From the NCBI GenBank assembly GCA_964640155.1, contig CAZXEQ010000001.1, forward strand, positions 30,001-62,000: a stretch of 32,000 bases of DNA, given 5' to 3'. Shown here one piece after another: positions 3,001 to 22,598 of the stretch. The position numbers were made by a program, and so were the translations under genes. The notes beneath the pieces were generated by a model. It was not told the origin of the DNA and searched no databases. It saw only the letters and a program-made list of their open reading frames with translations. The stretch is from an uncultured bacterium. GTDB lineage: Bacteria; Auribacterota; JACPWU01. The stretch's first letter is position 1. The number at the start of each line of letters is the position of its first letter.

Positions 3001-6000
3001 TTAAGGAACCTCTTAAATTCCCATTATCAATGCTAGAAATCCAGCTTTCAGCAGGTTGCAATCTCTGCTGAGGAAGTCTAGAATTTTTTGGGAAATATGC
3101 CGCATAGAAGAATCCTCTATGTCTTGGGAGTGTAGATAAGGTTTGTAAGGTACGTAGAGTAAGATCTCTAGCAAGATCTAAATCTAAAACTCCTAAATCA
3201 CGTAATACCGCAATACTGACAAGATAAAAACCAATATTGGTAATACGATGAATAGGGTTGGTTGGAACCAGGCCATTACCTCGAATAGCTGCGGTGTCAT
3301 AAATCAAACCTGTCTCAGGGTCAACTTTGCGACGCATGGACTCCCATGTGGACAACAAAGAATTTCCTAGTTCTCTTTCGTCCGGTTGTAAACCGATTGA
3401 CGCTCCAGTCACACGCGGCCGAACTGCAGTGCCAGAGTCAGGCCTAGGTTGAGCATAAGCTGTAGGAATAAGAACATCACTGATTCTATCCCATAAAGTA
3501 GGCGAAGTCGTCGTACTCATTCTTACTCCCCATCCACCTGAAGGGAGTGGAGACAGAGAAACGGGGAAACCTCCTTGAACTCTTGTGCCACTTGTTTCTG
3601 TACTAGAATCAGATAGTAGTGCGCCTAAAGAAACTCTCTCTGTTGTTAAAGGAGCGATTGAAGGCAATGTGTTTGATTCAGCTCTTGGTAAAGCTGTTTG
3701 GGATGACAACATTAAATTCCAACGCGTTTGAAAAGCAGCAATATCCTCTGGAGAGAATTGAGTTTCTTCAAAAATTTGAATAATTTGTCTTCTAATGTCT
3801 ACTAATTCATCTTCAGAAAAATGTCTTCCTCTTAAGCTTTCTAATAATGAATTTAATCTTGTTCTAGCACGCATTAACCGGACCAACGTTTCTTGAGATG
3901 GTGCAGGCGTTATTTCAGGTCCATGTGCTGCTTGCTGAGAAGTCGTAGCTCTTTGTCTTGCAGCTTCTCGCCTTTGCCTTCTTAAATCTGTCCTCAAAGA
4001 TCGAATACTCTCATCTAATTTTGCCAATTCTCCTTGCAATAAAACTTGCTCTTGACGGATTTCATCCAAAGACCTTTCAGAAGTTGAAGTCGCGACATTC
4101 CCTGATCGTTCTTCAGCATGCTCAACCAGTCTTTCCAAAGAAATACCCAAAGGTAAAAGATATGCTTTTAAAACCTCTCTTTTTTGAGAAAAATCAGAAA
4201 GAGCAGAAAGAAAAACACTTAATGCTTCTTGATATCGAGTATAAGTCATAATCCATTGTCCTGCTCCAACGGTACTTGTTGTTTCTTCCGCTGTATAGGA
4301 TTCTCGAAATTGTCTCCAAGCTGTTTTCTGAGCTTCAAAATATCTTTGAGCTTCAATCACCCTTAAAACAGAATCTTGAAAATCTTGAATTTTTGCTTCC
4401 AATTCAAGCCCCATCTCCCGACGACGTTCACGTAACTCAGATTCAGCTCCCGCTAAACGAATACGCGCAATTCTTCTTTCAGAAGAAATACGGCCTCCTT
4501 CATACAAGGCAAAAGTCCATTCAGCTCCTGCCCCTACGGCCCCTGACAAAAGTTCTAGCCCCGACCCTCTCAAATTCAAACTTCCTAAATGGTGAAAAAT
4601 TGGAGTTGTAACATCAAATTCTGCGCCTTCCACATGATGAACTTCCGGTAATACGGCACGGTTCAAAGGACTGTTCGCAGCATTTGGATTTGAAAAGAGA
4701 CTTCTAAGTCGTGCATCTACCCATGAATCAAAACCAACTTGATCTCTTAACCATGCTGGCACTTGATCATTTAATTGTGCTGTAGGAGGGAAATCCACAT
4801 CTCTTCCCAACAAGACTCTCAAGCGTTCTTCAGCCATGGCCACAGGATGCTCAGCCAATAAAAGTCTCTGAGTTGCTTCTAATCGCTGAGCATCGTTAGA
4901 GTCTCTCAATGTTGTTGATCCTGAAACAGCAGCTTGTTCAGTATATCTTCTTTGAACTGTGCTTATGAATTCTTGAACAGTCGCTTGATCAGAGCGACGA
5001 ATTTCTTCAACTCTTCTTGCTAAAAGCAAATCATGATAAGCCTGCATTAACTCAAGTGTTGCGCGAACTCTTTCTCTTTGAAAAGAAGCTTGAGCCTCAT
5101 CTAAACGATGCTGAGCTGCTCCAATAGAACGAAAATTTGACCATTGAAGATTCAATGTCGCTTCACCCGTGACAGCTTGATTAAATCCTGCACGAAGATA
5201 ATCCTGTGCGGGAGCAGGAGAAATGGATCCAATATTTGTACTGATTAAACCTGCAGAAGTCCTCATAGTTAAAGGTTCTCTAACTTGATTTGTTACAGCA
5301 TCAATTACGCCCTGTCTTGCTTCTTCAACACGGTGATGAGCCCTCTGAATTGAAGGTAAAGCATTGGGTCCTTCAGGATCCAATGCCATTGCCAAAACTC
5401 TCTCAAAACTCAAAATCTGTGGAGAACGAGTAGGCGTAGGTCTTTGTACATTTACTCTTAATGCTTCTTGCCAATCTCTAGAATAATGACTTCTCTCTTC
5501 ACCATAATGCATTAATATTCTCACAGCTGATCGAAAACTTCGTACAGCTCTATCTAATCTTTGTAAGGCTTCTACTTCTTGAACCCGATCTTCCAAGACT
5601 GTTCCTTCATGAACATTGGGGTCCATATTTGCAACAACATTAGGATCGAACTCTTGACCTGTCATGCGCAAGTGAAGCTGTAAAGCTTGTCGAATTCTCA
5701 CAAGATCCGCTTGAATTTCTCTAATCTGATTCAAACTTTGTTCATAATTTCTATGAGCAGCCGATAAATCTTGTTCCTTTTGCCGTAAATACACAGCTCT
5801 TTCTGTTTGGGCATCTTCCATGGCTTGTTCGGCCCGACGCTGAACAGCATCTCTTGAACTTCCTCCAAATCGACCTGTTAAAGTGAGCATCACTTCCCAT
5901 CCTGGAATTGGAGAAGGCGTAGGAGAGGGTGGCTGAAGAGAAAGAGGATTTTCAGGATTTGATGCTAAAACCCGATCAGGTCGGTCTACAAACCCACGTC

Positions 6001-9000
6001 CTCTTAAATCAAATTCAATGGGACGAAGACTCCCCGCAACGGATGACAAGCGACGATTTCTTGCAACATCAGCCTCTAAAACCCTTAAACGCGCTGAACC
6101 ATCATAACCTGTCGATAATTCAAGTAAGTCTCCTGATGGAATTTGTAATGCATTAATCATCTCATCGGTGACTTGACCCATCCCCATCAAATGAAGAATT
6201 TCTATTTTGATTTGACGCAATTGCGTCTCTGCTCGGGTCTTTTCAGCTTCTGCTCGTCTTAAAGCCTGCTCTTGCCCTTGTATGACCAGACTTCCATATA
6301 AATTCGTATGGGCATTCATATACTGAACAAAGGGTCGTCTAAAATTGATTTCTTGATCTAACTTTGCTATATCTTCCTGTAAATCTTGATACCTTAAAAA
6401 TTTATCCGATAAAGATTCAATCACATGGCTGCGCTCTTGATCAATTTGAGCTCGAATATGCGACTCTAAAACTTCAGCGGCATCAATTTCTTCTTGAGTA
6501 GCACCTAACCAAGGAAGCATCCCTGTAATAGCAACACCCGCACCTAAATTAGAAAAAATGCCTTGTTCAGAAAAAGTCCGATCAGGAGAGAAAAAATCAT
6601 GTCCAGAATCTGCAGCATGAAAAGTGTAGTAAACTTGAGCTCTCGCAAAAATACTCAACTGTGGCCTACGGCTAGCACTAGCTAAAGCTCGTCTAGCTTG
6701 TGCCAAACGAAGTTCTGCGTTTAATCTTTGAATATTTGGATTATTTTGAACCGCTCGAGCTAAAATATCATTGCGCTGAATACCAGATAAGGCTTCTGGC
6801 GTCAACCGTTGCGTTTGTTGAACTGTTTGAATTTCCGCTTCCATCCATTGCGCCCTAGCTTGAGTGTATCCCTGTAAAGCTTCTACTTGCCTTCTTCTCA
6901 CTTCCAAACGTTCTCGCATCGTTCCCAATCGAGCTGCCACATCGTCAGGAATAACTTCTGAGGTAGGAAGCTGCGGAATAGTTGCTAACATATTTAAAAC
7001 CGTCATACGATTTCGCCAATCCAATTCAAATTCCTCGCGATGAAATTGATTGGTTCTACGATCATTGTCTCTTGCTACCCTTAACAAACGACGCTGTTGT
7101 TCAACAACTTCTCTTGCTGCACCTGTATATCCTAAATTTGATAAAACATATCCAACTGATAAATCTGCTCCAAGCGTACCTGTCCATGCTCCTCCTACAT
7201 CAAATCGAGGATCAAAATTAATTCTCCTCATCCCTTCAACAATCACACTTGCATCAAACGTAAAACGATTACTTCGATCCATCACAGATCTTTGGGCTTG
7301 AAGAGCTCTGTCTCGAGCCGTATAAAGAAGTTCGGGATCAAGTCTGTGACTTCGAATTAAAGTTTCCTCCATAACCCCATTTACTTCGTTAATTACAGCC
7401 GTTGTAAAATCTGCTCCCTGCAAGCCTTGTATTCTTGTAACAAATTCAGGAGAAAAACCTCTCACATGAAGATTGCCTCGACGAGAAAAACCCATTTGCC
7501 GCGCTAATTCTGTCTGAGCACGATGTAAAACAGACTCAGCTTCTCTTAAAAAAACACCGGCCTGTCCTCGAGCCGCTTCAACATTACTAAACTCTGCATC
7601 AGATAAAGTTTGCCCCGTATGAAGAGCCTGAGCAGCATTGTATAAACCATTTACATCTCTTTGATATTCTCTAACCATCTCAACTTTTAATTGAGCCATT
7701 AACAAACTGACATAAGCTTGTACCGTATCCATCACCACTTGATGTCTATCTCTTTGAGCCATCTGACGAGCAACATCCCAATTCCTTAACGCAAAATGTG
7801 TAGCAGCGGCACGAACTGGATCAAACCGATAACCAAATCTTAAAACTGCCGAAACTTGCAACCAATTTAAAGGTTGTGCAAAAGATCCATCATCATCGGC
7901 ATGACCATAGAAAGTAAAATTTCGATAGTCTCCTCTTAGAATAAGATGAAGTCCTATTCCATTTGCCCCCTCTTGAAAATCATACATGGCTCTGGCAACA
8001 TCCGCTTCAGTTCTTGGAAGATGATCATGATGATTTAAAGCTTGTTCAATAGTCTGACGTAAATCCATTTCTGCAGGTGGAACGGGTTCTGGAAGAGCTC
8101 CTGTTTCAGTGGTAGGAGAAGTAGCTGCCTCGCGTGCCAGCATTTGTCCTCGATTTTCAGTCATCTTAGCTCTCAGAGTTCTTCTTCGTTCTGTGGCTTG
8201 ACCAAGATTTTGTCTCAAAGCTTGGATTGCTTCTGAACTCCCTGGTTCGAGAACAACAGAAGGCACGCCTGGTTTTTGCTCCACTGAAGAAGTTGTCGTA
8301 GTTTGAACGACCAAAGCACCATTTTGATTTGATGTTGTTGAAGTCTGTATGTCTGTGCCAACAGCCCTAGGAGTCAAAGCGGCAATTTGTTGATCCAATT
8401 GATGTTCGGCCTCCTCTAGAACTTGTACTACAGGAACAGAAGAAATAGGAGTCTCTGAAAAAAGAGTTGAAGAAGAATTATCAGGAAGAACTGTCACAAC
8501 AGGCCCTGGCGATGCCAATGGAGAATGAGAATCACCCAAAATCCCTGAACTTTCTGCTGCATGATAAGCAACCCCTCCTGCCATCACTGCAACACTGGCA
8601 TAACCTAAACCCTCCACACCTTTTAAAACTACACGCGTTGGAATAGAAAGTGCTAGAGGATTCCATGCTAGCTCTAACAATGCTCGATCTTCTTCACCCA
8701 ACTTCCCTTTATAATCCAAAAGATCTTCCGCTGTAATCTCTTCTTTTCTCTCAATCTTTTCTATCATTTCCCCTAAAACATCTCTCAAAGGACAAGCATG
8801 ATCTCTTAGAGCTTGATAAAGAACCCAAAGTCCTCCATGGGGATTCCGATCAAAATGCTGACGATGGGTCATCTCAGTCTTTAAAGTGTCCATATCGACA
8901 GGGCGAGATTGATGATATTGACCTAAAAGGGCATCAAAAACTTCTTGAGACATATCTGATCTAATTTGAAATGCTTTTGCCTGTCCTTTTACATCTACTT

Positions 9001-12000
9001 TTAAAATTGCAAAAGGTTTACCTTCATGATAAATCAATTGTACTTCTTCTCTTGCACTCACTACTTTCTCGTCTTCCAATCTTTCAGAAGACTCCACAGC
9101 TTCACCAATTAAATATTCCACCGGATCCAATTCTCTGAAATAAACAAGCCGTCCATGTACAAACTCACAAAAAAGACCCAATTCTGGATAAAATTTTGGA
9201 CCTGTAAAATCTTTTTTTGAAGCCTGAGGAAGATCAAAAACCTTTGCTGTTGTCTGATCATAAAATCTAACAGGATTACCCTTTTGATATTCCACACGGA
9301 CATTGACTTTTCGACGGGCACTGAGTAATTTCCCTTCTAAAAATTGAGCAACATAAGTCTCACTTTCCCATCGACCCGTAAAATTTTCATCGACAGGCTG
9401 AGGAATTGCTAAAGGGGCTGCTCCTTTCCCAAAAGGATCTACAAAATCATAAGCATACACAAAACCAGGTCGTTCTTTACTTTTTAGCTCTTGAACTTTT
9501 TCTGAAGTCATTACTCCTTTTTTTACCAATCGATCTAACGCTTCTGATGTGAAAAGTTCAAAATCATCTGCTGAAAAACCTGTAAAGTTGGCTGACAATT
9601 CAAAAGATTCAGGTCCAGGAATAGAATAGGCCGCTGAAGCATGGTCTCTTGCACTTAAAGAAACGCGTGAAAAACCAATTTCTTTTTTCCCCTCTCGATG
9701 GACAAATCGAACATCCTCTTTTCCTACCACATCATGAAGATCTAACCAATGACCTAATTGTTCTGGACGCAAACCTAAAGGTTTTAAACTGGAAACTCGA
9801 GCTAATTCTTCTTCAATGGCAGATGTTGCTTTTAATAATGCCTCTTTTAAATTATCCTCAAAATTTTCATCATCTAAACTTCCATAAGCCAAATTAATGA
9901 CAATTTTCTGCCCATCCCAAACAACCATTTCAGGTTTCTTTGCAAAATAGGCAGCAACTCCTTCTATTACTTTCCAAACAAGTCCTAAGGCAAATCCTAG
10001 CGTAATCGAAATAAAAGTTTTTGAAATAAACTTCCCAATCAAACTCAAAATAGAAAACGTCCAGCGGGCTGTAATTCCTTCAAGTTCCCTTATTCCCCAA
10101 ACCAAAGAAATCTCTTTCCTGAAACCCTGCCAAATAGAAGGACGAGTTTGATTGCTCTCCACTTTCAATTCAGGTTTATGAATCACAGCGACTCTCACTC
10201 TAGCGGCTTCTTGCATTTGGGCTAAAAATGGATATTGCGTCAAAAGTGTTTGACGCCACTGAACTAAACTCTGATGACCCGCTAACACCTCAGACCCTTC
10301 CATTAAAGTTTCCACACGTTCTAAATCTCCATCTGAAAACTTGCCTTCACCTTTTTGGGTAGGATCTACAAAAAGAATAACGGGAGGATATTCAACAGTC
10401 ACTTCCGGTCCTGCACGATGGGGATGAATCATTTCATCCAGCCAGGATTTTCTTTCGCTTTGAAAATTTCCGAACTTCTTAAAGAATAAGGCAAAGAAAA
10501 CAGCTACATCTTGTCCACGACCTGCCAAATCTGCCAAAACTTCCTGGGCAACACGCTTTTTCTCACCTATATTTGTAGAATGCGTCAAACAAGCAGCTAA
10601 ACGCTTCAACTGAAACTCATTCATCTCCACAAAACTTGCTTCTGGACTTAATTCTTCTGCTTTTTCAATCACTCCTACTTTTAAAATAATTCCCATCGGT
10701 TGGCCATATACAACCACAGGAATATAATAATCATCTCCTAATCTTTGAATTTTCTCTGAATCCACTTCCACGGCTGAAAGAGCATCAGAAAGTCTTTCTC
10801 TTATTGACGCAGCCTCTTCATCACTCAGAAGTCCTTCCCGGACGCGATTGAGCAAAAACCCATTTAAATGAGCTGTATGTTCTTTCGTATTACCCCGCTC
10901 CATTTCTCCAGCCTGCCCCTTTTTCCCTTCAGTAACCAATTTCGTTACTTGAGCACTCGCCAAAATTCTCATTAAACTCAAAGCTACACGGACGGAAACT
11001 TGCTGGGCTTCTGCTTTTGTTCCAGCCACTCTTCTAATCTCTGGATCTGCAATCTCTGCCAAAAAACTTGCTAATGCTGAGGGCAACATATTCAGCATCA
11101 AAGGGCCTAACTGATCGGAATTTCCACGATAAGCCACCAGTGGTATTTGCTTCGAACTCGTATCTGTTGAATCGGAAGGTTGAGAGAGAAGTTTCGATAA
11201 AGAAACTTTACCTTTTACTTCATTCTTCTTACTTAAAACTTTCATCTCTTGTTCCATCGAAGAAAGTTCATCATCCATAATGGAAAGATAAGGAGTTTTA
11301 AGCTTCAATTTGGTTACTTTTGGAGTAATAATCACATAAGAAATACCCTTTTCTTCTAACTGCTTTGCAATCCCCTCTGAATGAAATCCTCCTGCCACAA
11401 GCACAGCAACAGGACTCTTAGCTTCTTTCATGGACTCCAACATATTTTGAACCATCACCTTGTCACGCTCTTTAGCAAAATCATAAAATTGTTTTAAAGG
11501 TTGAATATTTTCATCTAAAAAATTGATATCTGGAACATCGAAAGTCCGATCTACACTTAAAGAAATTTCTTTCAATCGAACTAATAAGTTGGAGGGTTTT
11601 AATTTTTCTTCATTTTCGTAGTAGTAAGACAAACCTGAACGCAAAAGCTCTAAATGATAAAAATCGCGAAGAAGCTTTAATGATTTGCCAATCTCAAACA
11701 AATCTTTTTGTTTTGGATCTTTTAAATAGGCTGCCTGTAAATCTTTTAAAATTTGATCACATTCGCCAAATAAAGCCTCGCTATCAATTTCATTAAAAAT
11801 TTTCACCATTTCAATATAAGAAGAAAGATTAGGATAACTTTCTAAAGAAACTTGAGCCTTTAAAACAGCTTTTTCTAAAGAGCTATAAAATTCATATGCC
11901 TTTATTTTCTCCAAACGATAATAAAGCCCTTGGGTTAAAAGATCTGCGAACTCCTCTTTAGCAACCTTCTTAGAAAGAACATTCATTAAATCCTGTCGTT

Positions 12001-12853
12001 CTTGTTCTACTTTATTGATTTTGATTTTCTTCTCAAGCTCTTTGACATCCATCATCTTCTTGATATTCATGCTTCCAGAAATATTTGAAAGCCCGAGAGT
12101 CTTTACCTGAGCCAGAAGAAACTCAACATAAGCAGCAAATCCTATTTTATCCTGATTGTAGTCTTTCTCTTTTTTGAGAAGATTTTTAACTTCCGATGGA
12201 TAAATTTTATCTTCAAGAACTTTCACTTCATTTTCTAATTGAGTTAAAAGCCCATCTGCTTTTTCCTGAACGGACATAGATTTTTGGAAAGCAAGAAAGT
12301 TATTAAAATAAAGAGGAAGATTTTCAATACCTTTCATCAAAAGGGGCTTATCTTGAACAATCGAGAGATATTCAGCTCCCGTAATTTTCCCCTGTTGAAG
12401 CAAAAGTCGTGCAACTTGTTTACGAATTTCAACTTGAGGGAAAGCTGTGAATAGAGAAGTATCTACCAAACCAGAAGCAGCTTCTAAACCAATCAGTTTT
12501 AAACCATGATCAGAATGTTTTTTGAAAAATTCATTGAGAATTTTTGCAGAATTGGATTGAGCTTCGAAATTACAGTGAAGATCTTGAATGTGAATAATCA
12601 GGGGTTGATTTTGACCTTGAAACTTGGATTTTATAAACCCCAGACTGGGACTTACATGAAATTCGGATACGGTAGGAGAGCTGGATGATGATTTAGACTT
12701 TTGAACAGGTGATTCATTAATTTCCAAGCCTCTTGCAAAGGCAAAATCACTACACAAGAAGCTAAAAGCAACAAGAACTGAAGTAATTCGGATTCTTATC
12801 GAAAAACCGTTCTTTTTTGTAAAAAAATTCCGGGATTGATATTTCCTAACCAT
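2..12853 (-). CDS. Giant multidomain envelope protein; N-terminus complete, C-terminus beyond the window edge (at least 4,284 codons visible)
   Basis: I hand-translated the minus-strand frame (codon low coordinate = 2 mod 3) across all 214 sequence lines. The ATG is at 12853-12851, with GGGGAG 6 nt upstream and an in-frame upstream stop at 12884-12886. No stop codon occurs down to nt 2. The protein starts MVRKYQSRNFFTKKNGFSIRIRITSVLVAFSFLCSDFAFARGLE. A complete-ORF track would omit it because it has no stop in the window, and no other frame in 1-12853 holds a long ORF. Confidence 0.9.
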   Translation of the reverse strand, partial: MVRKYQSRNFFTKKNGFSIRIRITSVLVAFSFLCSDFAFARGLEINESPVQKSKSSSSSPTVSEFHVSPSLGFIKSKFQGQNQPLIIHIQDLHCNFEAQSNSAKILNEFFKKHSDHGLKLIGLEAASGLVDTSLFTAFPQVEIRKQVARLLLQQGKITGAEYLSIVQDKPLLMKGIENLPLYFNNFLAFQKSMSVQEKADGLLTQLENEVKVLEDKIYPSEVKNLLKKEKDYNQDKIGFAAYVEFLLAQVKTLGLSNISGSMNIKKMMDVKELEKKIKINKVEQERQDLMNVLSKKVAKEEFADLLTQGLYYRLEKIKAYEFYSSLEKAVLKAQVSLESYPNLSSYIEMVKIFNEIDSEALFGECDQILKDLQAAYLKDPKQKDLFEIGKSLKLLRDFYHLELLRSGLSYYYENEEKLKPSNLLVRLKEISLSVDRTFDVPDINFLDENIQPLKQFYDFAKERDKVMVQNMLESMKEAKSPVAVLVAGGFHSEGIAKQLEEKGISYVIITPKVTKLKLKTPYLSIMDDELSSMEQEMKVLSKKNEVKGKVSLSKLLSQPSDSTDTSSKQIPLVAYRGNSDQLGPLMLNMLPSALASFLAEIADPEIRRVAGTKAEAQQVSVRVALSLMRILASAQVTKLVTEGKKGQAGEMERGNTKEHTAHLNGFLLNRVREGLLSDEEAASIRERLSDALSAVEVDSEKIQRLGDDYYIPVVVYGQPMGIILKVGVIEKAEELSPEASFVEMNEFQLKRLAACLTHSTNIGEKKRVAQEVLADLAGRGQDVAVFFALFFKKFGNFQSERKSWLDEMIHPHRAGPEVTVEYPPVILFVDPTQKGEGKFSDGDLERVETLMEGSEVLAGHQSLVQWRQTLLTQYPFLAQMQEAARVRVAVIHKPELKVESNQTRPSIWQGFRKEISLVWGIRELEGITARWTFSILSLIGKFISKTFISITLGFALGLVWKVIEGVAAYFAKKPEMVVWDGQKIVINLAYGSLDDENFEDNLKEALLKATSAIEEELARVSSLKPLGLRPEQLGHWLDLHDVVGKEDVRFVHREGKKEIGFSRVSLSARDHASAAYSIPGPESFELSANFTGFSADDFELFTSEALDRLVKKGVMTSEKVQELKSKERPGFVYAYDFVDPFGKGAAPLAIPQPVDENFTGRWESETYVAQFLEGKLLSARRKVNVRVEYQKGNPVRFYDQTTAKVFDLPQASKKDFTGPKFYPELGLFCEFVHGRLVYFRELDPVEYLIGEAVESSERLEDEKVVSAREEVQLIYHEGKPFAILKVDVKGQAKAFQIRSDMSQEVFDALLGQYHQSRPVDMDTLKTEMTHRQHFDRNPHGGLWVLYQALRDHACPLRDVLGEMIEKIERKEEITAEDLLDYKGKLGEEDRALLELAWNPLALSIPTRVVLKGVEGLGYASVAVMAGGVAYHAAESSGILGDSHSPLASPGPVVTVLPDNSSSTLFSETPISSVPVVQVLEEAEHQLDQQIAALTPRAVGTDIQTSTTSNQNGALVVQTTTTSSVEQKPGVPSVVLEPGSSEAIQALRQNLGQATERRRTLRAKMTENRGQMLAREAATSPTTETGALPEPVPPAEMDLRQTIEQALNHHDHLPRTEADVARAMYDFQEGANGIGLHLILRGDYRNFTFYGHADDDGSFAQPLNWLQVSAVLRFGYRFDPVRAAATHFALRNWDVARQMAQRDRHQVVMDTVQAYVSLLMAQLKVEMVREYQRDVNGLYNAAQALHTGQTLSDAEFSNVEAARGQAGVFLREAESVLHRAQTELARQMGFSRRGNLHVRGFSPEFVTRIQGLQGADFTTAVINEVNGVMEETLIRSHRLDPELLYTARDRALQAQRSVMDRSNRFTFDASVIVEGMRRINFDPRFDVGGAWTGTLGADLSVGYVLSNLGYTGAAREVVEQQRRLLRVARDNDRRTNQFHREEFELDWRNRMTVLNMLATIPQLPTSEVIPDDVAARLGTMRERLEVRRRQVEALQGYTQARAQWMEAEIQTVQQTQRLTPEALSGIQRNDILARAVQNNPNIQRLNAELRLAQARRALASASRRPQLSIFARAQVYYTFHAADSGHDFFSPDRTFSEQGIFSNLGAGVAITGMLPWLGATQEEIDAAEVLESHIRAQIDQERSHVIESLSDKFLRYQDLQEDIAKLDQEINFRRPFVQYMNAHTNLYGSLVIQGQEQALRRAEAEKTRAETQLRQIKIEILHLMGMGQVTDEMINALQIPSGDLLELSTGYDGSARLRVLEADVARNRRLSSVAGSLRPIEFDLRGRGFVDRPDRVLASNPENPLSLQPPSPTPSPIPGWEVMLTLTGRFGGSSRDAVQRRAEQAMEDAQTERAVYLRQKEQDLSAAHRNYEQSLNQIREIQADLVRIRQALQLHLRMTGQEFDPNVVANMDPNVHEGTVLEDRVQEVEALQRLDRAVRSFRSAVRILMHYGEERSHYSRDWQEALRVNVQRPTPTRSPQILSFERVLAMALDPEGPNALPSIQRAHHRVEEARQGVIDAVTNQVREPLTMRTSAGLISTNIGSISPAPAQDYLRAGFNQAVTGEATLNLQWSNFRSIGAAQHRLDEAQASFQRERVRATLELMQAYHDLLLARRVEEIRRSDQATVQEFISTVQRRYTEQAAVSGSTTLRDSNDAQRLEATQRLLLAEHPVAMAEERLRVLLGRDVDFPPTAQLNDQVPAWLRDQVGFDSWVDARLRSLFSNPNAANSPLNRAVLPEVHHVEGAEFDVTTPIFHHLGSLNLRGSGLELLSGAVGAGAEWTFALYEGGRISSERRIARIRLAGAESELRERRREMGLELEAKIQDFQDSVLRVIEAQRYFEAQKTAWRQFRESYTAEETTSTVGAGQWIMTYTRYQEALSVFLSALSDFSQKREVLKAYLLPLGISLERLVEHAEERSGNVATSTSERSLDEIRQEQVLLQGELAKLDESIRSLRTDLRRQRREAARQRATTSQQAAHGPEITPAPSQETLVRLMRARTRLNSLLESLRGRHFSEDELVDIRRQIIQIFEETQFSPEDIAAFQTRWNLMLSSQTALPRAESNTLPSIAPLTTERVSLGALLSDSSTETSGTRVQGGFPVSLSPLPSGGWGVRMSTTTSPTLWDRISDVLIPTAYAQPRPDSGTAVRPRVTGASIGLQPDERELGNSLLSTWESMRRKVDPETGLIYDTAAIRGNGLVPTNPIHRITNIGFYLVSIAVLRDLGVLDLDLARDLTLRTLQTLSTLPRHRGFFYAAYFPKNSRLPQQRLQPAESWISSIDNGNLRGSLIALRGAYLRDQSLQGRAILQIIDRIIFGETREGRVIQPPQDLSVFLDRQYHDPQDPNSQYLALVLTPALDDLSQPFPPQRAFRFLGAPASSPINHINLNLFGGEFGSEATLTTLLGVAMGEMPMERLTDLRVRVYNPRPGLVAPMSFFGASFQIGIPPLLTNVDENASAYRSLLQGEAQLRVDRGSRLDPSSFEGLGLNTQGLWADLRDNGHYIDNDGRVLDSVRTLDSADDLQLGAAYTSKKNDIFLILHQVSLRQGMMAAHSASLVNNRGDYAGELGLRELRMVRNWDPSYETVFTPHAAFLALPFVASYTDVTTSLQTLRVRYPGHEAQEATADHGATQAQLPAYHTNLGWVDAVNLERSEVVGRTVALNDAMGLLALAQALGANPGDYVDHTLSDPAFRAQVQTHLPNRRNPIHTMAELGQALDPVLRAQVRRDQHVEIPAPRPNPHLHLRSGQTTLERGRQILEALSQSRLQLPQAVVVPEEDYERVDLTARSGTGWDGHAFPFWNVEQHNELARQDAERRRSDRALSVERWRSREAARERAIEDEWHEREARREDDSRIRERRLAELERDYARRQAATRTEVRSLLSLLRDFSLRPHVRHMRGSPSLVSGGAVSGVLNSLGAAVGDGRVMNLNDWTLVFDRYARSRNMSASDMQTYFSNIHRVIPLLRSGALSGSPLPDFLANSFEALIPMETLDLFSNRDIGAGVNLKFLGLASYYALFLMQHPMADAALREHIEHDSLLFRGISNVAHRRSVTEGFPQGAMLSPVLQPAEAANVDPTIRDLRRLAYHDRLFRQRVFNAEFQKVSDGERSQGRNAMRGPLAGFYSQVTGASRQFNENYASQGYLTVWDTYVRSRPQGVSIETLGEVVSAIHSRVNRFYHGQIRVRDTARLAYWRALGNIAQANAVMQLSRESVSMARDVAWANFALNYLKDANDTPEDLARKLSAWLDKLERFRSAVEVLYGHLDLDSSRDIGALSSWVRLAESVDARPEQFR
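1840..3340 (-). other. Glucoamylase-like (PF10091/DUF3131/GH144-type) (alpha/alpha)6 glycoside-hydrolase-like domain of the giant protein (aa about 3,170-3,670)
   Basis: Motifs TNPIHRITNIGFYLVSIAVLRDLGVLDLDLARDLTLRTLQTLSTLPRHRGFFYAAY...WISSIDNGNLRGSLIALRGAY and YHTNLGWVDAVNLERSEVVGRTVALNDAMGLLALAQAL. They resemble the GFFYhW...S.iD...L and GyGf.DafN...iDqGp.l motifs of that family. Recalled from memory, not searched. Confidence 0.45.
4142..8068 (-). other. Six OEP (TolC-type) repeats forming three TolC-protomer-sized units inside the giant protein (aa about 1,596-2,904)
   Basis: Three consecutive units of about 425-435 aa (about nt 8068-6800, 6799-5500 and 5499-4142). Each opens with a TolC-like N-terminal motif: MDLRQTIEQALNHHDHLP; LSGIQRNDILARAVQNNPNIQRLNAELRLAQARRAL; ILSFERVLAMALDPEGPNALPSIQRAHHRVEEARQ. 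Each also contains OEP signatures such as ATLNLQWSNFRSIGAAQHRLDEAQASFQRERVRATLELMQAYHDLLLARRVEEIRRS and AEWTFALYEGGRISSERRIARIRLAGAESELRERRRE. Confidence 0.75.
9941..10063 (-). other. Internal hydrophobic transmembrane segment(s) of the giant protein (aa about 931-971)
   Basis: Translation WTFSILSLIGKFISKTFISITLGFALGLVWKVIEGVAAYFA, flanked by charged residues. Confidence 0.5.
11300..12680 (-). other. N-terminal module of the giant protein, paralogous to the neighbouring 1,063-aa protein; ChaN/TraB/GumN/Tiki-like His motifs
   Basis: Giant PLIIHIQDLHCNFEAQSNSAKILNEF...LKLIGLEAASG aligns with neighbour TVLLVQDAHCNFEAQRNTSEILNSL...IPLIGLEGAQG. Giant FYDFAKERDKVMVQNMLESMKEAKSPVAVLVAGGFHSEGIAKQLEEKGISYVIITPKV aligns with neighbour FYEFALQRDEAMLNASLQGMEEKKVSLMMLVTGGFHTQGIAQALKEKDISFFIITPKV. 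The spacing between the two His motifs is about 390-400 aa in both proteins. The superfamily assignment is an inference from this motif pattern. Confidence 0.6.
12731..12853 (-). other. Predicted Sec signal peptide of the giant protein (aa 1-41)
   Basis: Basic n-region (RKYQSRNFFTKKNGFSIRIR), hydrophobic core ITSVLVAFSFLC and an AFA-R cleavage-like site. Assigned by eye only. Confidence 0.55.
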
Positions 12854-12904
12854 TTGCAACTCCCCGCCCCCCAGTTTATATAACTACTTCTCTCTCTTTA
12901 GTTA

Positions 12905-18480: not shown

Positions 18481-18619
18481 GCGTGCCGGCCCCGATATTT
18501 TTCGGGGGGCCGACTTACATCGGCCTTGAGCCAGTCACTCCTCCTAGTAGTCGAATATCAGCCACTGGCTGATATGCATTCTTAATCAAATCTTCTGACC
18601 AATGGCCTTTAAGAAGTCA
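18481..18619 (-). ncRNA. tRNA-trailing structured element E1 (between the tRNA-Glu 3' end and the 269-aa gene start); same family as E2 and E3
   Basis: Shares the family core with E2 and E3. Conserved hairpin atatcagcc 18555-18563 / ggctgatat 18567-18575, flanked by tagtcg and gcat. Hairpin ccccga 18490-18495 / tcgggg 18502-18507. Left end gcgtgcc. GC-rich island within AT-rich spacer. The strand is assumed from the tRNA orientation. Confidence 0.5.
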
Positions 18620-18692
18620 CGGCCCCAACGGGATTCGAACCCGTGTCTCAGCCTTGAGAGGGCTACGTCCTAGGCCTCTAGACGATGGGGCC
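18620..18692 (-). tRNA. tRNA-Glu (anticodon CUC)
   Basis: The reverse complement folds as a cloverleaf: GGCCCCA TC GTCT AGAGGCCTA GGAC G TAGCC CTCTCAA GGCTG AGAC ACGGG TTCGAAT CCCGT TGGGGCC G. 73 nt; no encoded CCA. Confidence 0.9.
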
Positions 18693-18724
18693 AAAAAAAT
18701 CATTTTGAAAATTAAAATTTTTGG

Positions 18725-18972
18725 CTGCCGGACTAGGATTCGGCGCCTGCGCGATTCGGTTATTCACCTTTGGTAAAACCCTCGGTTGATTTTCAACCTC
18801 GGACACCTCACGCTTCGGTCGGCCACTCGGTTCTCCTAATAGTCGCAAATCATGCCCCGCATGATTTGCATCATTTCTTAGTCGAACCTCTCTTCGAATC
18901 CTAGTTTACTACTAAACTATTCCTGATGAAATTTATAGGCTTTGATACTTTTACATCTCTTACTGCGAAACT
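18725..18972 (-). mobile_element. tRNA-trailing element E2, bounded by an 18-nt duplication of the tRNA-Gln T-loop-to-3'-end; candidate miniature integrative element or structured RNA
   Basis: Direct repeat ctgccggactaggattcg at 18725-18742 and 18973-18990, the second copy lying inside tRNA-Gln. Identity breaks inside the T-loop and is followed by gcgcc. Internal inverted copy cgaatcctagt 18895-18905 pairs with 18732-18742. Conserved hairpin caaatcatg 18846-18854 / catgatttg 18860-18868. Hairpin ggttga/tcaacc 18784-18798. Confidence 0.6.
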
Positions 18973-19043
18973 CTGCCGGACTAGGATTCGAACCTAGATA
19001 CACAGATCCAGAGTCTGCGGTCCTACCATTAGACGATCCGGCA
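18973..19043 (-). tRNA. tRNA-Gln (anticodon CUG)
   Basis: The reverse complement is TGCCGGA TC GTCT AATGGTA GGAC C GCAGA CTCTGGA TCTGT GTAT CTAGG TTCGAAT CCTAG TCCGGCA G. U1-A72 and G73 are typical of bacterial tRNA-Gln. 71 nt; no encoded CCA. Confidence 0.88.
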
Positions 19044-19100
19044 AAAAAGTAGTGGATAGTGTATAGGGAATAGTGCGGAGTGAAAAGAAAAAATTCTCTC

Positions 19101-20945: not shown

Positions 20946-21584
20946 TCATTTTTGAACAATATTATCATGACTTCCGACAATCGCTTCTAATGGCGCCTTC
21001 CACGAAGTATCTGCCTTTTCAGTCTTTAACTTCATGAAGTACTCCAATCCTGCTTGAATATTACCTTTTGAGAAAAGGCATCGTCCTAAATTAATCTGAA
21101 CAACTGTGCTTAAAAAAGAAGATTTTTCGTCTTTTGCCAAACGATTAAAAACTGCTTCTGCCTCAGCTATTTTTCCTTCCCAAAGAAGACATTCTCCAAT
21201 TCTATTTTCAAGGAGAGAAGAAAAAGCCCCACGAGTGGAGCTTTTTAAAATTTTCTCATACATTTCTCGTGCTTGCAAAAAATGTCCTTGTTTCCACTCC
21301 TCTTCAGCAAGATTAATGAATGCAATTTGTGAAGCAACAGTCCCTGAATAATTTTTTACAAATTTTTCATATTCCTGATTTTCTTTTAAAAGAGAAAGAG
21401 CTTGAAAAGCTTTTTCTTCATGTTGGTTTTGATAGGTAAACCAACCCCAATATCCTAATGCAATAACCACTGTCATTAACAAAAATCCGATAATTATTTT
21501 TTTAAATTTTTGAAACGTTTGAATTAACCGAGAAAGTTTTGTATTCGGTTTTTGTAAAAGAGTTGCTACAGATTTATTTTTCAT
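20946..21584 (-). CDS. Membrane-anchored TPR-like protein, YfgM-like (ancillary SecYEG-associated family)
   Basis: 212 aa. Single N-terminal TM helix IIIGFLLMTVVIALGYWGWFTY, followed by TPR-like helices (FLQAREMYEKILKSS..., AEAEAVFNRLAKDE..., NIQAGLEYFMKL). The architecture matches YfgM. Confidence 0.55.
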   Translation of the reverse strand: MKNKSVATLLQKPNTKLSRLIQTFQKFKKIIIGFLLMTVVIALGYWGWFTYQNQHEEKAFQALSLLKENQEYEKFVKNYSGTVASQIAFINLAEEEWKQGHFLQAREMYEKILKSSTRGAFSSLLENRIGECLLWEGKIAEAEAVFNRLAKDEKSSFLSTVVQINLGRCLFSKGNIQAGLEYFMKLKTEKADTSWKAPLEAIVGSHDNIVQK

Positions 21585-21629
21585 GATGGTAAAGTCCCTA
21601 TCAGGTTTACATAAATACTAAAGAGCTAC

Positions 21630-21657
21630 ATCATACTCACTAAAATTTAAAAATCAA
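21630..21657 (-). promoter_or_regulatory. Candidate sigma-70 promoter for the YfgM-like gene (TTGATT-16 nt-TATGAT)
   Basis: On the minus strand, TTGATT is at 21657-21652, followed by a 16-nt spacer and TATGAT at 21635-21630. The site is about 45 nt upstream of the ATG at 21584. Confidence 0.35.
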
Positions 21658-21693
21658 AATATTTAAAAATCCTAAAACGCTGATTTCTATATT

Positions 21694-21938
21694 AAATTTT
21701 GCCCCCGAGACGAGTCGGCGCCTTTGGGTCTCGGGCTACCCCGATATGTACATCGGGGACCTTCGGACGCCTCGCCCTCCGGTCGGCCAGCCGCCCTTCA
21801 CAGCAGTCGCCAATCATCCTGTGGATGATTGGCATTATAGAGTTTCAGGGCTCCTATTCGACTCGTCAAAAAGACAGATTTGACACGAGTCCAAAGATAT
21901 ATTACCTATACGCACTGCACGTGATAAACAAAAAATTT
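21694..21938 (-). mobile_element. tRNA-trailing element E3, bounded by a 24-nt duplication of the tRNA-Arg T-loop-to-3'-end plus trailer; candidate miniature integrative element or structured RNA
   Basis: Direct repeat aaattttgcccccgagacgagtcg at 21694-21717 and 21933-21956, the second copy overlapping the tRNA-Arg 3' end. Identity breaks in the T-loop and is followed by gcgcc, as in E2. Internal inverted copy cgactcgtc 21859-21867 pairs with 21709-21717. Conserved hairpin ccaatcatcc 21810-21819 / ggatgattgg 21823-21832. Hairpin ccccgat/atcgggg 21739-21758. Confidence 0.6.
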
Positions 21939-22012
21939 TGCCCCCGAGACGAGTCGAACGTCCGACCTAGGCTTTAGGAAAGCCTCGCTCTATCCTACTG
22001 AGCTACGGGGGC
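21939..22012 (-). tRNA. tRNA-Arg (anticodon CCU)
   Basis: The reverse complement is GCCCCCG TA GCTC AGTAGGATA GAGC G AGGCT TTCCTAA AGCCT AGGTC GGACG TTCGACT CGTCT CGGGGGC A. 74 nt; no encoded CCA. Confidence 0.9.
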
Positions 22013-22052
22013 GTTAAAACGATTGCTTTTCCTAAGCCCTATCAAACTGCCG

Positions 22053-22598
22053 CTAATACTGAATTAATGAAAAAACAGGATGTCCTTCAAGTTTTTTCCT
22101 GCCTTCAAGGAATAAAAGTTCAATAAGAAAAGCGATTTCAACAATTTCACAACCAAGATTCTTAACCAATTCAATCACCGCAGAAATAGTGCCTCCAGTC
22201 GCCAAAACATCATCCACTAAAAGAACTCTATCCCCTTTTTTTAAATCTTCTTTATGAATTTCAAGGCAATCTAAACCATATTCGAGTTGATAAGTAGCTT
22301 TACATGTAGCACGAGGTAATTTACCTTTTTTTCGTACAGGAATCACTCCAACACCCAATTGCGCTGCCAATGGGGCTCCCAGTAAAAAACCTCTAGATTC
22401 AATACATACAATCGCATCAAAGGAAGAATCTTTAAGGTGGTTTGCAAAAAAATCGATTGTCTTTTTAAAAAGAGGACCATTCTTTAAAAGAGGCGTAATA
22501 TCTTTAAACAAAATTCCTTTTTTAGGAAAATCTGGAACATCGCGAATTGCTTCTTTTAATGCTACCTCGAGTGCTTTGCTCCCTTCCATCGTGATCAC
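22053..22598 (-). CDS. apt: Adenine phosphoribosyltransferase
   Basis: 181 aa. Apt-typical DFPKKGILFKDITPLL and the PRPP-binding motif VLLVDDVLATGGT. Its start overlaps the sigma gene stop by 4 nt (ATGA). Confidence 0.92.
   Translation of the reverse strand: MITMEGSKALEVALKEAIRDVPDFPKKGILFKDITPLLKNGPLFKKTIDFFANHLKDSSFDAIVCIESRGFLLGAPLAAQLGVGVIPVRKKGKLPRATCKATYQLEYGLDCLEIHKEDLKKGDRVLLVDDVLATGGTISAVIELVKNLGCEIVEIAFLIELLFLEGRKKLEGHPVFSLIQY

What the first reader, a model, noticed from the sequence alone, without database searches (positions are those of the whole stretch)
21694..22012. E3: 24-nt duplication of the tRNA-Arg T-loop-to-3'-end flanks a 215-nt GC-rich insert (att-like architecture without an integrase)
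aaattttgcccccgagacgagtcg occurs at 21694-21717 and again at 21933-21956, where it forms the 3' part of tRNA-Arg(CCU) plus 6 nt of 3' trailer. Identity stops exactly inside the T-loop (TTCGA). This is the geometry known for tyrosine-integrase att sites of the T-loop sublocation class in tRNA genes. Here, however, the segment between the repeats is only 215 nt and non-coding. Just inside the element, cgactcgtc (21859-21867) is the inverted complement of the duplicated T-stem, so an RNA from this region could fold into a long closing stem that ends in a free acceptor-like 3' strand.
Basis: partly seen in the sequence, partly recalled or inferred. Interest (0 to 1): 0.75.

Follow-up and report, generated by a model that had tools for sequence, protein, structure and literature searches.

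The report
tRNA-matched structured trailer RNA family
The duplicated tRNA-Arg tail is the functional 3' end of a conserved, folded ~170-nt non-coding element that sits behind each of the three tRNA genes in this chlamydia-like genome window, with ends tailored to each tRNA. The design matches E. coli's poorly understood RtT RNA but the sequence is unrelated.

Summary
An exact 24-nt repeat (21694-21717 and 21933-21956) duplicates the T-loop-to-discriminator part of tRNA-Arg(CCU) plus 6 nt, and two independent assemblies reproduce it. It is not a lone att scar. The GC-rich segment is a conserved structured element on the tRNA-sense strand (RNA 21867->21700). It is also present at the same site in two relatives (86% and 75% nt identity) and absent from cleanly empty sites in others. 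A paralogous copy follows tRNA-Gln(CUG) in this window (18903->18725) and in a distant relative. A degenerate copy follows tRNA-Glu(CUC). Each intact copy starts with 9-13 nt complementary to its own tRNA's T-arm and ends with the conserved AGGCGC plus that tRNA's last 18 nt. This gives a 9-bp closing helix and a 9-nt free acceptor-strand tail. Four helices have covariation support. There is no Rfam hit and no integrase in 32 kb. E. coli RtT (RF00391, after tyrT/tyrV) has the same design (closing helix from a tRNA-Tyr 3' copy, 9-nt tail, 59-nt spacer) without significant sequence similarity. Best reading: an RtT-like tRNA-trailer RNA family. Its origin by recombination at tRNA 3' ends remains open, and its function is unknown.

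The parts
21939..22012 (-). tRNA-Arg(CCU) gene, intact, no encoded CCA
   Evidence: ARAGORN; Rfam tRNA 63.3 bits
21933..21956 (-). Proximal copy of the 24-nt repeat: tRNA positions 56-73 (CGACTCGTCTCGGGGGCA) plus AAATTT trailer
   Evidence: (D2)
21868..21938 (-). 71-nt AT-rich spacer between the tRNA and the element. Similar length in all copies (62-75 nt). The sequence is conserved only between close relatives.
   Evidence: no sigma-70-like promoter above the scan threshold
21700..21867 (-). Arg copy of the structured element (RNA 5' G at 21867 to discriminator-equivalent A at 21700), 168 nt
   Evidence: CM R1 182 bits; orthologues in L038 and L005; minus-strand fold z = -4.7 against -3.0 for the plus strand
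21859..21867 (-). P1 5' strand GACGAGUCG (with the following AA = inverted copy of tRNA T-loop/T-stem 54-64)
   Evidence: I16; pairs counted (helix 1, 100% paired, 2 pairs covary with tRNA identity)
21847..21851 (-). P2 5' strand GCCCU, pairing with AGGGC at 21793-21797
   Evidence: Compensatory against L005 GUCCCGAC/GUCGGGAC, Gln GGUUC/GAACC and L014 GUUCCGGC/GCCGGGAC
21808..21834 (-). P3 hairpin: 12 bp including an invariant U.G pair, variable triloop
   Evidence: I15; helix 3 (3 pairs with double changes)
21781..21788 (-). P4 5' strand GGCCGACC (bulged C and A), invariant in the family; pairs with GGCGCC at 21717-21722
   Evidence: MFE of L005, the Gln copy and L014; helix 4 (100% paired, invariant)
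21739..21758 (-). Distal variable hairpin CCCCGAU...AUCGGGG. It is replaced by other hairpins in L005 and the Gln copies, and is flipped in L038.
21709..21717 (-). P1 3' strand CGACUCGUC = first 9 nt of the tRNA 3'-end copy, preceded by conserved AGGCGC
21700..21708 (-). 9-nt unpaired 3' tail UCGGGGGCA, identical to the acceptor 3' strand plus discriminator of tRNA-Arg
21694..21717 (-). Distal copy of the 24-nt repeat
   Evidence: D2
18972..19044 (-). tRNA-Gln(CUG) gene, partner of the second copy
18722..18903 (-). Gln copy of the element. 5' UAGGAUUCGAA is the inverted copy of the tRNA-Gln T-arm. 3' AGGCGC plus CGAAUCCUAGUCCGGCAG is the last 18 nt of tRNA-Gln, followed by CCA (18722-18724).
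   Evidence: nhmmer E = 2e-32; CM 165 bits; sequence
18619..18693 (-). tRNA-Glu(CUC) gene, partner of the third, degenerate copy
18500..18602 (-). Degenerate third copy. It keeps the P3 hairpin and GACUAcUAGGAG, distal hairpins, and ends in GGGGCCG (last 7 nt of tRNA-Glu). P1 and P4 are eroded.
   Evidence: nhmmer E = 2e-6 to 9e-6; CM E = 2e-5; sequence

Best explanation
The 24-nt duplication is the 3' end of a conserved, structured non-coding element of about 170 nt, on the same strand as the tRNA.

**Family and architecture**
- The element belongs to a family placed 62-75 nt downstream of tRNA genes in a group of environmental Chlamydiae-like bacteria.
- Every intact copy has the same layout:
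  - a 5' segment complementary to the T-loop/T-stem 3' strand of the upstream tRNA;
  - a conserved core: the P2-P3 arm, plus an invariant P4 helix GGCCGACC/GGCGCC that carries variable distal hairpins;
  - the motif AGGCGC;
  - an exact copy of that tRNA's last 18 nt.
- The first 9 nt of the copy pair with the 5' segment to close the molecule (P1). The last 9 nt (acceptor 3' strand plus discriminator) stay single-stranded.

**Proposed mechanism (inferred, by analogy with E. coli rtT RNA)**
- The element is transcribed with the tRNA as a 3' trailer or inter-tRNA spacer and released by tRNA-processing nucleases.
- The tRNA-derived end gives it a tRNA-like 3' terminus. That terminus is trimmed, and possibly CCA-tailed, like the tRNA's own.
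- It could then mimic or compete with the 3' end of the cognate tRNA, or pair with the tRNA's 5' acceptor strand.

**Origin (also inferred)**
- The att-like geometry and the patchy distribution are best explained by gain and loss through recombination at the tRNA 3' end. Loss would occur by recombination between the 18-nt repeats.

**Shown versus inferred**
- Shown: family, architecture, tRNA matching, covariation, presence/absence.
- Inferred: transcription, processing, cellular role, mode of spread.
For: **Conservation at the orthologous site**
- L038 (86% nt identity) and L005 (75% nt identity) carry the element behind tRNA-Arg.
- Against L005 there are 100%-conserved blocks: GACGAGTCGAA, TGGCCGACCGGAGnGCGAGnCGTCCGAAG and AGGCGCCGACTCGTCTCGGGGGCA. 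The spacer and other intergenic DNA are at chance-level identity (54-58%).

**Paralogues with retailored ends**
- Window 18722-18903 lies behind tRNA-Gln, and L014 6386-6526 lies behind its tRNA-Gln. A degenerate copy lies behind tRNA-Glu.
- All three tRNA genes of the window have a copy directly downstream. No copy occurs elsewhere in the 32 kb.

**Ends track the tRNA**
- All five intact copies match their tRNA at 18 of 18 positions.
- The L014 copy carries tcTggcag, like its own tRNA-Gln. The window's copy and tRNA both have tcCggcag.

**Structure**
- 92.6% of cells are paired, against 25-44% when partners are slid. Eleven pairs show changes on both sides, and 0 of 500 shuffles reach this.
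- The consensus fold is the MFE for L005 and the Gln copy, and close to it for L014 (-50.9 against -55.5 kcal/mol). It lies within 5 kcal/mol of the MFE for the Arg copy.

**Strand**
- There is an invariant U.G pair. G.U cells number 7 against 4 A.C cells. The minus-strand fold has z = -4.7.

**Precedent**
- E. coli RtT units (RF00391) follow tyrT and tyrV and end exactly at the CCA of a 19-nt copy of the tRNA-Tyr 3' end.
- The Rfam consensus has a closing helix GgGaaGGAU/AUCCuuCcC and an unpaired 9-nt tail. The spacer is 59 nt.
- rtT RNA is reported as a processing product of the tyrT operon (PMC2965389, citing Bosl & Kersten 1991; bioRxiv 10.1101/2024.07.17.603846).

**Context**
- No promoter or terminator was predicted between the tRNA and the element.
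- No recombinase is encoded in the window.
Against: - There are no expression data. Transcription, processing and 3'-end formation are all inferred.
- Only five intact copies from four genomes exist, and two are near-identical. The counted alignment was fitted to the model. P1 covariation is not independent of the tRNA sequence, and P4 never varies.
- The strand call from G.U against A.C pairs is weak (7 against 4).
- A weak promoter-like site inside the spacer (TTATCA-17-TAATAT, 8 of 12, below the scan threshold) cannot be excluded.
- Clean empty sites in relatives, two paralogues at different tRNAs, and 93-94% identity of spacer plus element between window and L038 (flanking genes 82-85%) fit a mobile DNA unit at least as well.
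- The function of the E. coli analogue is itself unknown, so the analogy explains design but not role.
- Similarity to RtT is architectural only: RF00391 gives no hit even at E <= 10, and local similarity is marginal (p about 0.04).
Confidence: 0.6

Rival explanations
1. The unit is a miniature integrase-less integrative element (CIME-like). The segment between the repeats (spacer plus core) is, or descends from, DNA inserted by a tyrosine recombinase acting in the T-loop of tRNA genes. The distal repeat is the displaced original tRNA 3' end (attR), and the proximal one was brought in by the element. The conserved folded core serves at the DNA level, or is a passenger RNA gene. A recombinase would be supplied in trans by another element in the genome.
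For: - The repeat starts in the T-loop and runs to the tRNA end, as in T-loop-class att sites (Ms6 integrates in tRNA-Ala T-loops, PMC1762012).
- A CIME is defined as an element that kept attL and attR but lost its integration genes (PMC5704250).
- Relatives have precise empty sites.
- Paralogues sit at two or three different tRNAs.
- Spacer plus element are 93-94% identical between window and L038, while flanking coding DNA is 82-85% identical.
- The locus is recombinationally active: tRNA-Arg is inverted in L006, L014, L039 and L036. L036 (90% nt identity) carries a different GC-rich segment, and L006 carries an extra ORF next to the tRNA 3' end.
Against: - No integrase is encoded in 32 kb.
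- No larger version or attP-bearing relative was found in viral contigs, JGI metagenome contigs, plasmids or phages.
- Simple integrase recombination at a new tRNA would leave a chimeric, broken tRNA unless the element already carried the right 3' end. Yet copies match three different tRNAs.
- Compensatory changes in P2 and P3, an invariant U.G pair, and an 18/18 match kept across 75%-identity lineages all indicate selection on a folded single strand, not on integrase arm sites.
- The left inverted copy lies 71 nt inside the proximal repeat, not at an element end.
Confidence: 0.27
2. The element is a cis-regulatory leader or processing signal for whatever lies downstream: the TPR_21-porin operon for the Arg copy, tRNA-Glu for the Gln copy, and a 269-aa ORF for the Glu copy.
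For: - Each copy is also upstream of a same-strand gene.
- A promoter-like site for the TPR gene lies just downstream of the Arg copy.
- Rfam types RtT as 'Cis-reg', and RtT-like sequences were proposed as attenuators (PMC2965389).
Against: - The downstream genes are unrelated to each other (a tRNA, a TPR protein, a hypothetical protein).
- The upstream partner is always a tRNA whose sequence the element copies.
- Relatives run the same TPR-porin operon without the element.
- No terminator-like hairpin with a U-tract was found.
Confidence: 0.06
3. The arrangement is a neutral leftover of a local duplication or rearrangement of the tRNA-Arg 3' end, with no function at all.
For: The locus is rearrangement-prone. 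The third copy is visibly decaying.
Against: - Blocks of 26-29 nt remain 100% identical at a divergence where neutral intergenic DNA is unalignable.
- Substitutions in the helices are compensatory.
- The same architecture was rebuilt on a different tRNA.
Confidence: 0.03
4. The distal repeat is an alternative 3' exon. The locus would encode a tRNA-Arg with a ~239-nt insertion in the T-loop (between positions 55 and 56) that can be removed or bypassed.
For: On paper, the tRNA 5' part plus the distal repeat would rebuild a complete tRNA.
Against: - An uninterrupted, high-scoring tRNA already precedes it.
- No bacterial splicing system for T-loop insertions is known (my own knowledge).
- There is no group I or group II intron signature.
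Confidence: 0.02

Closest known systems
RtT RNA / rttR of the E. coli tyrT-tyrV operon (Rfam RF00391; the 178-bp repeats of Egan & Landy 1978; Bosl & Kersten 1991)
   Same: - Both lie in the 3' trailer or inter-tRNA spacer, on the same strand as the tRNA.
- Each unit ends in a copy of the tRNA's 3' end that begins inside the T-loop (19 nt in E. coli, 18 nt here).
- The first half of that copy pairs with an upstream inverted copy to form a 9-bp closing helix, leaving a 9-nt unpaired tail.
- The spacer after the tRNA is 59 nt in E. coli and 62-75 nt here.
- The core is GC-rich with several hairpins.
- These points were checked here.
   Different: - There is no significant sequence or CM similarity.
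- The phylum differs.
- Here there is one unit per tRNA, not 3.14 tandem units.
- Units here are matched to three different tRNAs (Arg-CCU, Gln-CUG, Glu-CUC) rather than one.
- There is no conserved small ORF like tpr.
- CCA is encoded only in the Gln copies.
T-loop-class tRNA att sites of tyrosine integrases, and CIMEs (att-flanked elements that lost their integrase)
   Same: - A direct repeat runs from the T-loop to the tRNA 3' end and flanks an insert downstream of an intact tRNA.
- Relatives have empty sites.
- No integrase lies inside the unit (PMC1762012; PMC5704250).
   Different: - The insert is only 215 nt and is a conserved folded module, not decayed ICE or prophage genes.
- The distal repeat is under selection as part of that module.
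- The same core occurs with ends matched to different tRNAs.
- No cognate integrase or larger relative was found.
tRNA 3' external-transcribed-spacer sRNAs (e.g. 3'ETS-leuZ of E. coli, a sponge for RyhB/RybB)
   Same: Both are functional RNAs cut out of a tRNA operon transcript downstream of a tRNA. This is my own knowledge; the term was found in PMC6191717.
   Different: 3'ETS-leuZ is short, is not closed by a tRNA-derived helix, and does not carry a copy of the tRNA 3' end. Its targets are sRNAs.
tRNA-like RNAs (tmRNA, YrlA)
   Same: Their 3' part imitates a tRNA acceptor/T-arm region.
   Different: No acceptor 5' strand is present, so there is no acceptor helix. ARAGORN finds no tmRNA. No YrlA or tmRNA CM hit falls on the element.
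MITEs / small non-autonomous transposons
   Same: Small, non-coding, multi-copy, with 9-bp inverted termini.
   Different: The right inverted repeat lies inside the direct repeat, and the left one lies 71 nt away from the other direct repeat. The termini change with the neighbouring tRNA. The 'duplication' always spans exactly tRNA positions 56-73.

Membership tests
RtT RNA (Rfam RF00391) | Match to the family covariance model at or above the gathering score (45 bits) | tested here: not met
   There is no RF00391 hit in the window at gathering, nor at E <= 10 on 21400-22300. In the positive control the model finds 4 copies at the E. coli tyrTV locus at 133-138 bits.
RtT RNA (Rfam RF00391) | Located in the 3' trailer or inter-tRNA spacer of a tRNA operon, on the same strand | tested here: met
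   window; E. coli
RtT RNA (Rfam RF00391) | Unit ends in a copy of the last ~19 nt of the upstream tRNA, with identity starting in the T-loop | tested here: met
   18 of 18 nt in all five intact copies. E. coli has AATCCTTCCCCCACCACCA.
RtT RNA (Rfam RF00391) | Closing helix formed by the tRNA-derived copy with an upstream inverted segment, leaving a ~9-nt unpaired 3' tail | tested here: met
   Rfam consensus. Here P1 is 100% paired, 2 pairs covary, and the tail is 9 nt.
RtT RNA (Rfam RF00391) | Released from the tRNA primary transcript by processing | not testable with these tools
   No expression data. Only the absence of a predicted promoter or terminator between tRNA and element.
RtT RNA (Rfam RF00391) | Tandem repetition of the unit and an embedded small basic ORF (tpr) | tested here: not met
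   One unit per tRNA. The 57-codon frame in the Arg copy is interrupted in L038 and L005 (sequences).
Tyrosine-integrase integrated element / CIME | Direct repeats (attL/attR core) that include the 3' end of the target tRNA gene | tested here: met
   (24 nt). The repeat is 18-22 nt in the other copies.
Tyrosine-integrase integrated element / CIME | Integrase gene in the element (ICE/prophage), or recognisable decayed remains of one (CIME) | tested here: not met
   The insert is 215 nt and non-coding. Pfam scans of all ORFs >=120 aa in the 32 kb find no integrase, recombinase or transposase.
Tyrosine-integrase integrated element / CIME | Empty target sites in related genomes with an intact tRNA and no repeat | tested here: met
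   Arg site: L011-13, L014/15, L039 and L006-8, plus L010 (contig ends 66 nt after the tRNA). Gln site: L011 and L039.
Tyrosine-integrase integrated element / CIME | Excision to a circle, or mobilisation by a cognate integrase | not testable with these tools
   Needs reads or experiments.
MITE / IS-derived element | Terminal inverted repeats at the element ends, flanked directly by a short target-site duplication | tested here: not met
   The right inverted repeat (21709-21717) lies inside the distal direct repeat. The left one (21859-21867) is 71 nt from the proximal direct repeat.
tmRNA / tRNA-like RNA | Acceptor helix plus T-arm recognised by ARAGORN or the Rfam models | tested here: not met
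   No 5' acceptor strand is present in the element or the spacer.

The most novel reading that the evidence does not exclude
tRNA-trailer elements whose two ends are rewritten to match whichever tRNA they follow could be a general class of bacterial element. The orphan E. coli RtT and this chlamydial family would then be two independent or very distant members. Either they are mobile units that regenerate their termini from the target tRNA gene by an undescribed mechanism, or they are RNAs that use the copied 3' end to mimic or engage uncharged tRNA (processing enzymes, the CCA-adding enzyme, or stringent-response sensing).
Probability: 0.25. Interest if true: 0.8.

Novelty: new variant of a known kind. 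Interest (0 to 1): 0.6.

Why it matters
E. coli's rtT RNA, with its 178-bp repeats that each carry the tRNA-Tyr 3' end, has been an unexplained curiosity since the late 1970s.

This window shows an unrelated sequence family in another phylum built to the same plan. Its ends are retailored to Arg, Gln and Glu tRNAs, and its helices show compensatory changes. That turns a one-off into a design principle:
- the copied tRNA 3' end is the working part of the element, forming the closing helix and the free acceptor-strand tail;
- it is not a recombination scar.

This gives concrete handles for asking what such RNAs do. The P1 helix, the tail and the invariant P4 helix can each be targeted, and there are natural filled and empty sites to compare.

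It also bears on genome annotation. A tRNA 3'-end duplication downstream of a tRNA gene should not automatically be read as the border of a genomic island.

Tried and rejected
**Searches that found nothing useful**
- Rfam at gathering and at E <= 10 gave nothing on the element.
- Exact-pattern scans of the conserved core gave only chance hits in GC-rich DNA:
  - viral contigs (checked);
  - JGI metagenome contigs (checked);
  - a gapped P4 pattern in viral contigs, with 120+ hits of which none was confirmed by the CM.
- blastn against plasmids and phages found no match.
- The attempt to extend beyond the window through a terminal gene returned only a 1.6-kb contig.
- The TPR-protein homologue search returned only the protein itself.

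**Hypotheses considered and dropped**
- Permuted or two-piece tmRNA, SRP, 6S, RNase P: no model hit and no acceptor 5' strand.
- Retron ncRNA, bridge RNA or omega-RNA remnant: no adjacent RT, IS110, TnpB or IscB gene.
- Retroviral-type primer-binding site: the complement lacks TGG, and the G.U pattern favours the tRNA-sense strand.
- A T-arm-like hairpin AGGCG/CGUCU at the 3' end of the Arg copy: it does not hold in the Gln copies, so it is coincidental.
- Homology between trailers of filled and empty sites: not significant beyond close relatives.
- Homology of the L036 GC-rich segment to the element: not significant apart from the tRNA piece.
- Sequence homology to E. coli RtT: marginal.
- A coding reading: the frame is not conserved.
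Full report
**Observation**

- The 24-mer AAATTTTGCCCCCGAGACGAGTCG occurs at 21694-21717 and again at 21933-21956 (family D2; read directly).
- tRNA-Arg(CCT) lies at 21939-22012 on the minus strand.
- On the tRNA strand the repeat is therefore CGACUCGUCUCGGGGGCA, which is C56 of the T-loop through the discriminator, plus AAAUUU.
- The 215 nt in between contain the only GC-rich island of the window besides a tRNA (70% against 39% overall).
- The 11-nt inverted copy of the T-loop/T-stem at 21857-21867 is exact (I16).
- A Logan assembly is identical over 2.9 kb, and an ENA assembly of a diverged strain has the same arrangement. This is not an assembly artefact.

**Context**

All genes here are on the minus strand and are housekeeping. 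The order is PPDK, a sigma-70 factor, adenine phosphoribosyltransferase (APRT), tRNA-Arg, the element, a TPR_21 protein, an alginate-export-type porin, tRNA-Gln and tRNA-Glu. The best named APRT and porin relatives are 'Chlamydiae bacterium' MAGs. No integrase, transposase or reverse transcriptase is encoded in the 32 kb.

**The orthologous site in relatives**

Synteny is conserved, so the site could be compared across loci.

| Locus | Relation to window | State of the tRNA-Arg site |
|---|---|---|
| L038 | 86% nt identity | filled; 71-75-nt AT-rich spacer, then a GC-rich block ending in the same tRNA 3' copy |
| L005 | 75% nt identity | filled, same layout |
| L011-13 | more distant | clean tRNA-Arg, no repeat, no element |
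| L014/15 | more distant | clean tRNA-Arg, no repeat, no element |
| L039 | more distant | clean tRNA-Arg, no repeat, no element |
| L006-8 | more distant | clean tRNA-Arg, no repeat, no element |
| L010 | 71% nt identity | apparently empty; contig ends 66 nt after the tRNA |

Against L005 the spacer and the other intergenic DNA are at chance-level identity (54-58%). The element keeps 26-29-nt blocks at 100% and reaches 68.5% overall. That points to purifying selection on the element and not on the spacer.

**More copies, matched to other tRNAs**

A profile of the core, excluding the tRNA-derived ends, found a second copy in the window itself (sequence).
- It lies on the minus strand at 18903->18725, between tRNA-Gln(CUG) and tRNA-Glu(CUC).
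- Its 5' end, UAGGAUUCGAA, is the inverted copy of the tRNA-Gln T-loop/T-stem.
- Its 3' end is AGGCGC followed by CGAAUCCUAGUCCGGCAG, the last 18 nt of tRNA-Gln, and then CCA.

The most distant relative examined (L014/15), which lacks the Arg copy, has a Gln copy. Its 3' end carries ...tcTggcag, like its own tRNA-Gln. The window has ...tcCggcag in both the tRNA and the copy.

A third, eroded copy follows tRNA-Glu at 18500-18602. It keeps the P3 hairpin, GACUAcUAGGAG, distal hairpins and a terminal GGGGCCG.

All three tRNA genes of the window therefore carry a family member directly downstream, and no copy occurs anywhere else in the window. L011 and L039 have empty tRNA-Gln sites.

**Structure**

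- Three of the five intact copies fold spontaneously into essentially one architecture. The Arg copy reaches it within 5 kcal/mol of its MFE.
- P1 is a 9-10-bp closing helix made of the 5' segment and the first half of the tRNA copy.
- P2 and P3 form an arm ending in a 12-bp hairpin with an invariant U.G pair and a variable triloop.
- P4 is the invariant helix GGCCGACC/GGCGCC with bulged C and A. It carries variable distal hairpins and abuts P1.
- A 9-nt unpaired tail equals the acceptor 3' strand plus discriminator.
- On a CM-guided alignment of the five copies, 92.6% of cells pair, against 25-44% with slid partners. Eleven pairs change on both sides, and 0 of 500 shuffles reach that.
- Caveats: there are few sequences, the alignment was fitted to the model, P1 is tied to the tRNA, and P4 never varies.
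- G.U cells outnumber A.C cells 7 to 4, and the tRNA-sense strand folds better (z = -4.7 against -3.0). This weakly favours a tRNA-sense RNA.
- Moving from the Arg to the Gln version needs only three changes in each P1 strand, because T-arms are similar between tRNAs. The 5' strand could therefore adapt by ordinary compensatory evolution once the 3' copy is set.

**Comparison with what is known**

Rfam has no match. The architecture does have a precedent, which I checked directly.
- In E. coli K-12, four RtT units (RF00391) follow tyrT and tyrV.
- Each unit ends exactly at the CCA of a 19-nt copy of the tRNA-Tyr 3' end, and that copy begins in the T-loop.
- The Rfam consensus shows a 9-bp closing helix between that copy and an upstream inverted segment, leaving a 9-nt unpaired tail.
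- The spacer after tyrV is 59 nt, against 62-75 nt here.
[quoted passage not shown] The 1991 paper itself was not available.
- Sequence similarity between the two families is marginal.

The relationship is therefore one of design, not demonstrated homology. The membership test for RF00391 fails on the model score and on tandem repetition.

**Mechanism**

Best-supported reading (confidence about 0.6):
- The element is a tRNA-trailer RNA.
- It is co-transcribed with the tRNA. No promoter or terminator was predicted between them, though a sub-threshold promoter-like site exists in the spacer.
- It is then released by tRNA-processing nucleases.
- The copied tRNA end gives it both its closing helix and a tRNA-identical 3' terminus.
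- What that terminus does is inferred, not shown. Candidates are a processing signal, protection of the 3' end, mimicry of the tRNA 3' end, or pairing with the tRNA 5' acceptor strand.

How copies arise is a separate question. The following points fit gain by site-specific or illegitimate recombination at tRNA 3' ends and loss by recombination between the 18-nt repeats:
- the T-loop-to-3'-end repeat;
- the clean empty sites;
- the higher identity of spacer plus element than of flanking genes between window and L038;
- the instability of the locus.

Against a purely DNA-level reading:
- no integrase or larger relative turned up anywhere I could search;
- a simple integrase jump to a new tRNA would break that tRNA;
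- selection clearly acts on a folded single strand.

I give the mobile-DNA-only reading about 0.27. The two readings are not mutually exclusive.

**Limits**

- The family is therefore documented in only four genomes and six loci.
- No expression data exist.

**Verdict**

- The feature is a new variant of the RtT kind of tRNA-trailer element. It is notable because its ends are retailored to different tRNAs.
- Interest: 0.6.

Noticed in passing
window 2-12883 (minus strand): A single open frame of at least 4,294 codons runs off the start of the window. Its only Pfam hit is an OEP/TolC-like outer-membrane efflux domain at residues 2039-2234.
   Followed up: partly
L006-8, L014/15, L039, L036 versus window, L038, L005, L010, L011: The tRNA-Arg(CCU) gene sits between the same two genes (APRT and TPR_21) but is inverted in four lineages and direct in five. 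One inverted case is a strain 90% identical to the window, so the tRNA gene has flipped repeatedly.
   Followed up: partly
L036 2999-3239 (GCA_041907445.1, JAYRHG010000024.1): This strain is 90% identical to the window up to the APRT stop codon. It then carries a different ~125-nt GC-rich, well-folding segment and an inverted tRNA-Arg. The segment shares only a CCCCG...GGGG hairpin plus AAGGCGCC with the element and ends in GCAGGGGGCAA. The contig breaks inside the T-loop.
   Followed up: partly
L006/L007 4745-5506; L008 814-1575: A 253-aa ORF with no Pfam match is inserted next to the 3' end of the inverted tRNA-Arg in this lineage. This is another insertion at the same tRNA end.
   Followed up: partly
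window 21820-21822 and 21744-21755 versus L038 885-887 and 955-966: Between the window and L038 the loops of two hairpins are reverse-complemented rather than point-mutated: ACA against UGU in P3, and GAUGUACAUAUC against GAUGUGUACAUC in the distal hairpin. These are small loop inversions of the kind produced by template switching at palindromes.
   Followed up: no
L039 6440-6560 and 6640-6690: The tRNA-Gln/tRNA-Glu spacer of this relative holds runs of TTAGGG-like repeats (tagggtt, tagggat) followed by their complement, forming a long inverted repeat. Similar repeats follow tRNA-Glu.
   Followed up: no
window 18722-18724; L014 ~6520-6522: Both Gln copies of the element are followed by an encoded CCA. 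The window's own tRNA-Gln gene lacks an encoded CCA, whereas L014's has one. The Arg copies are followed by AAA.
   Followed up: no
window 21868-21938 versus L038 768-839: Spacer plus element are 93-94% identical between the two strains, while the flanking coding regions are 82-85% identical (third codon positions 65%). This hints at more recent shared ancestry of this segment, or at constraint on the spacer at short range.
   Followed up: partly
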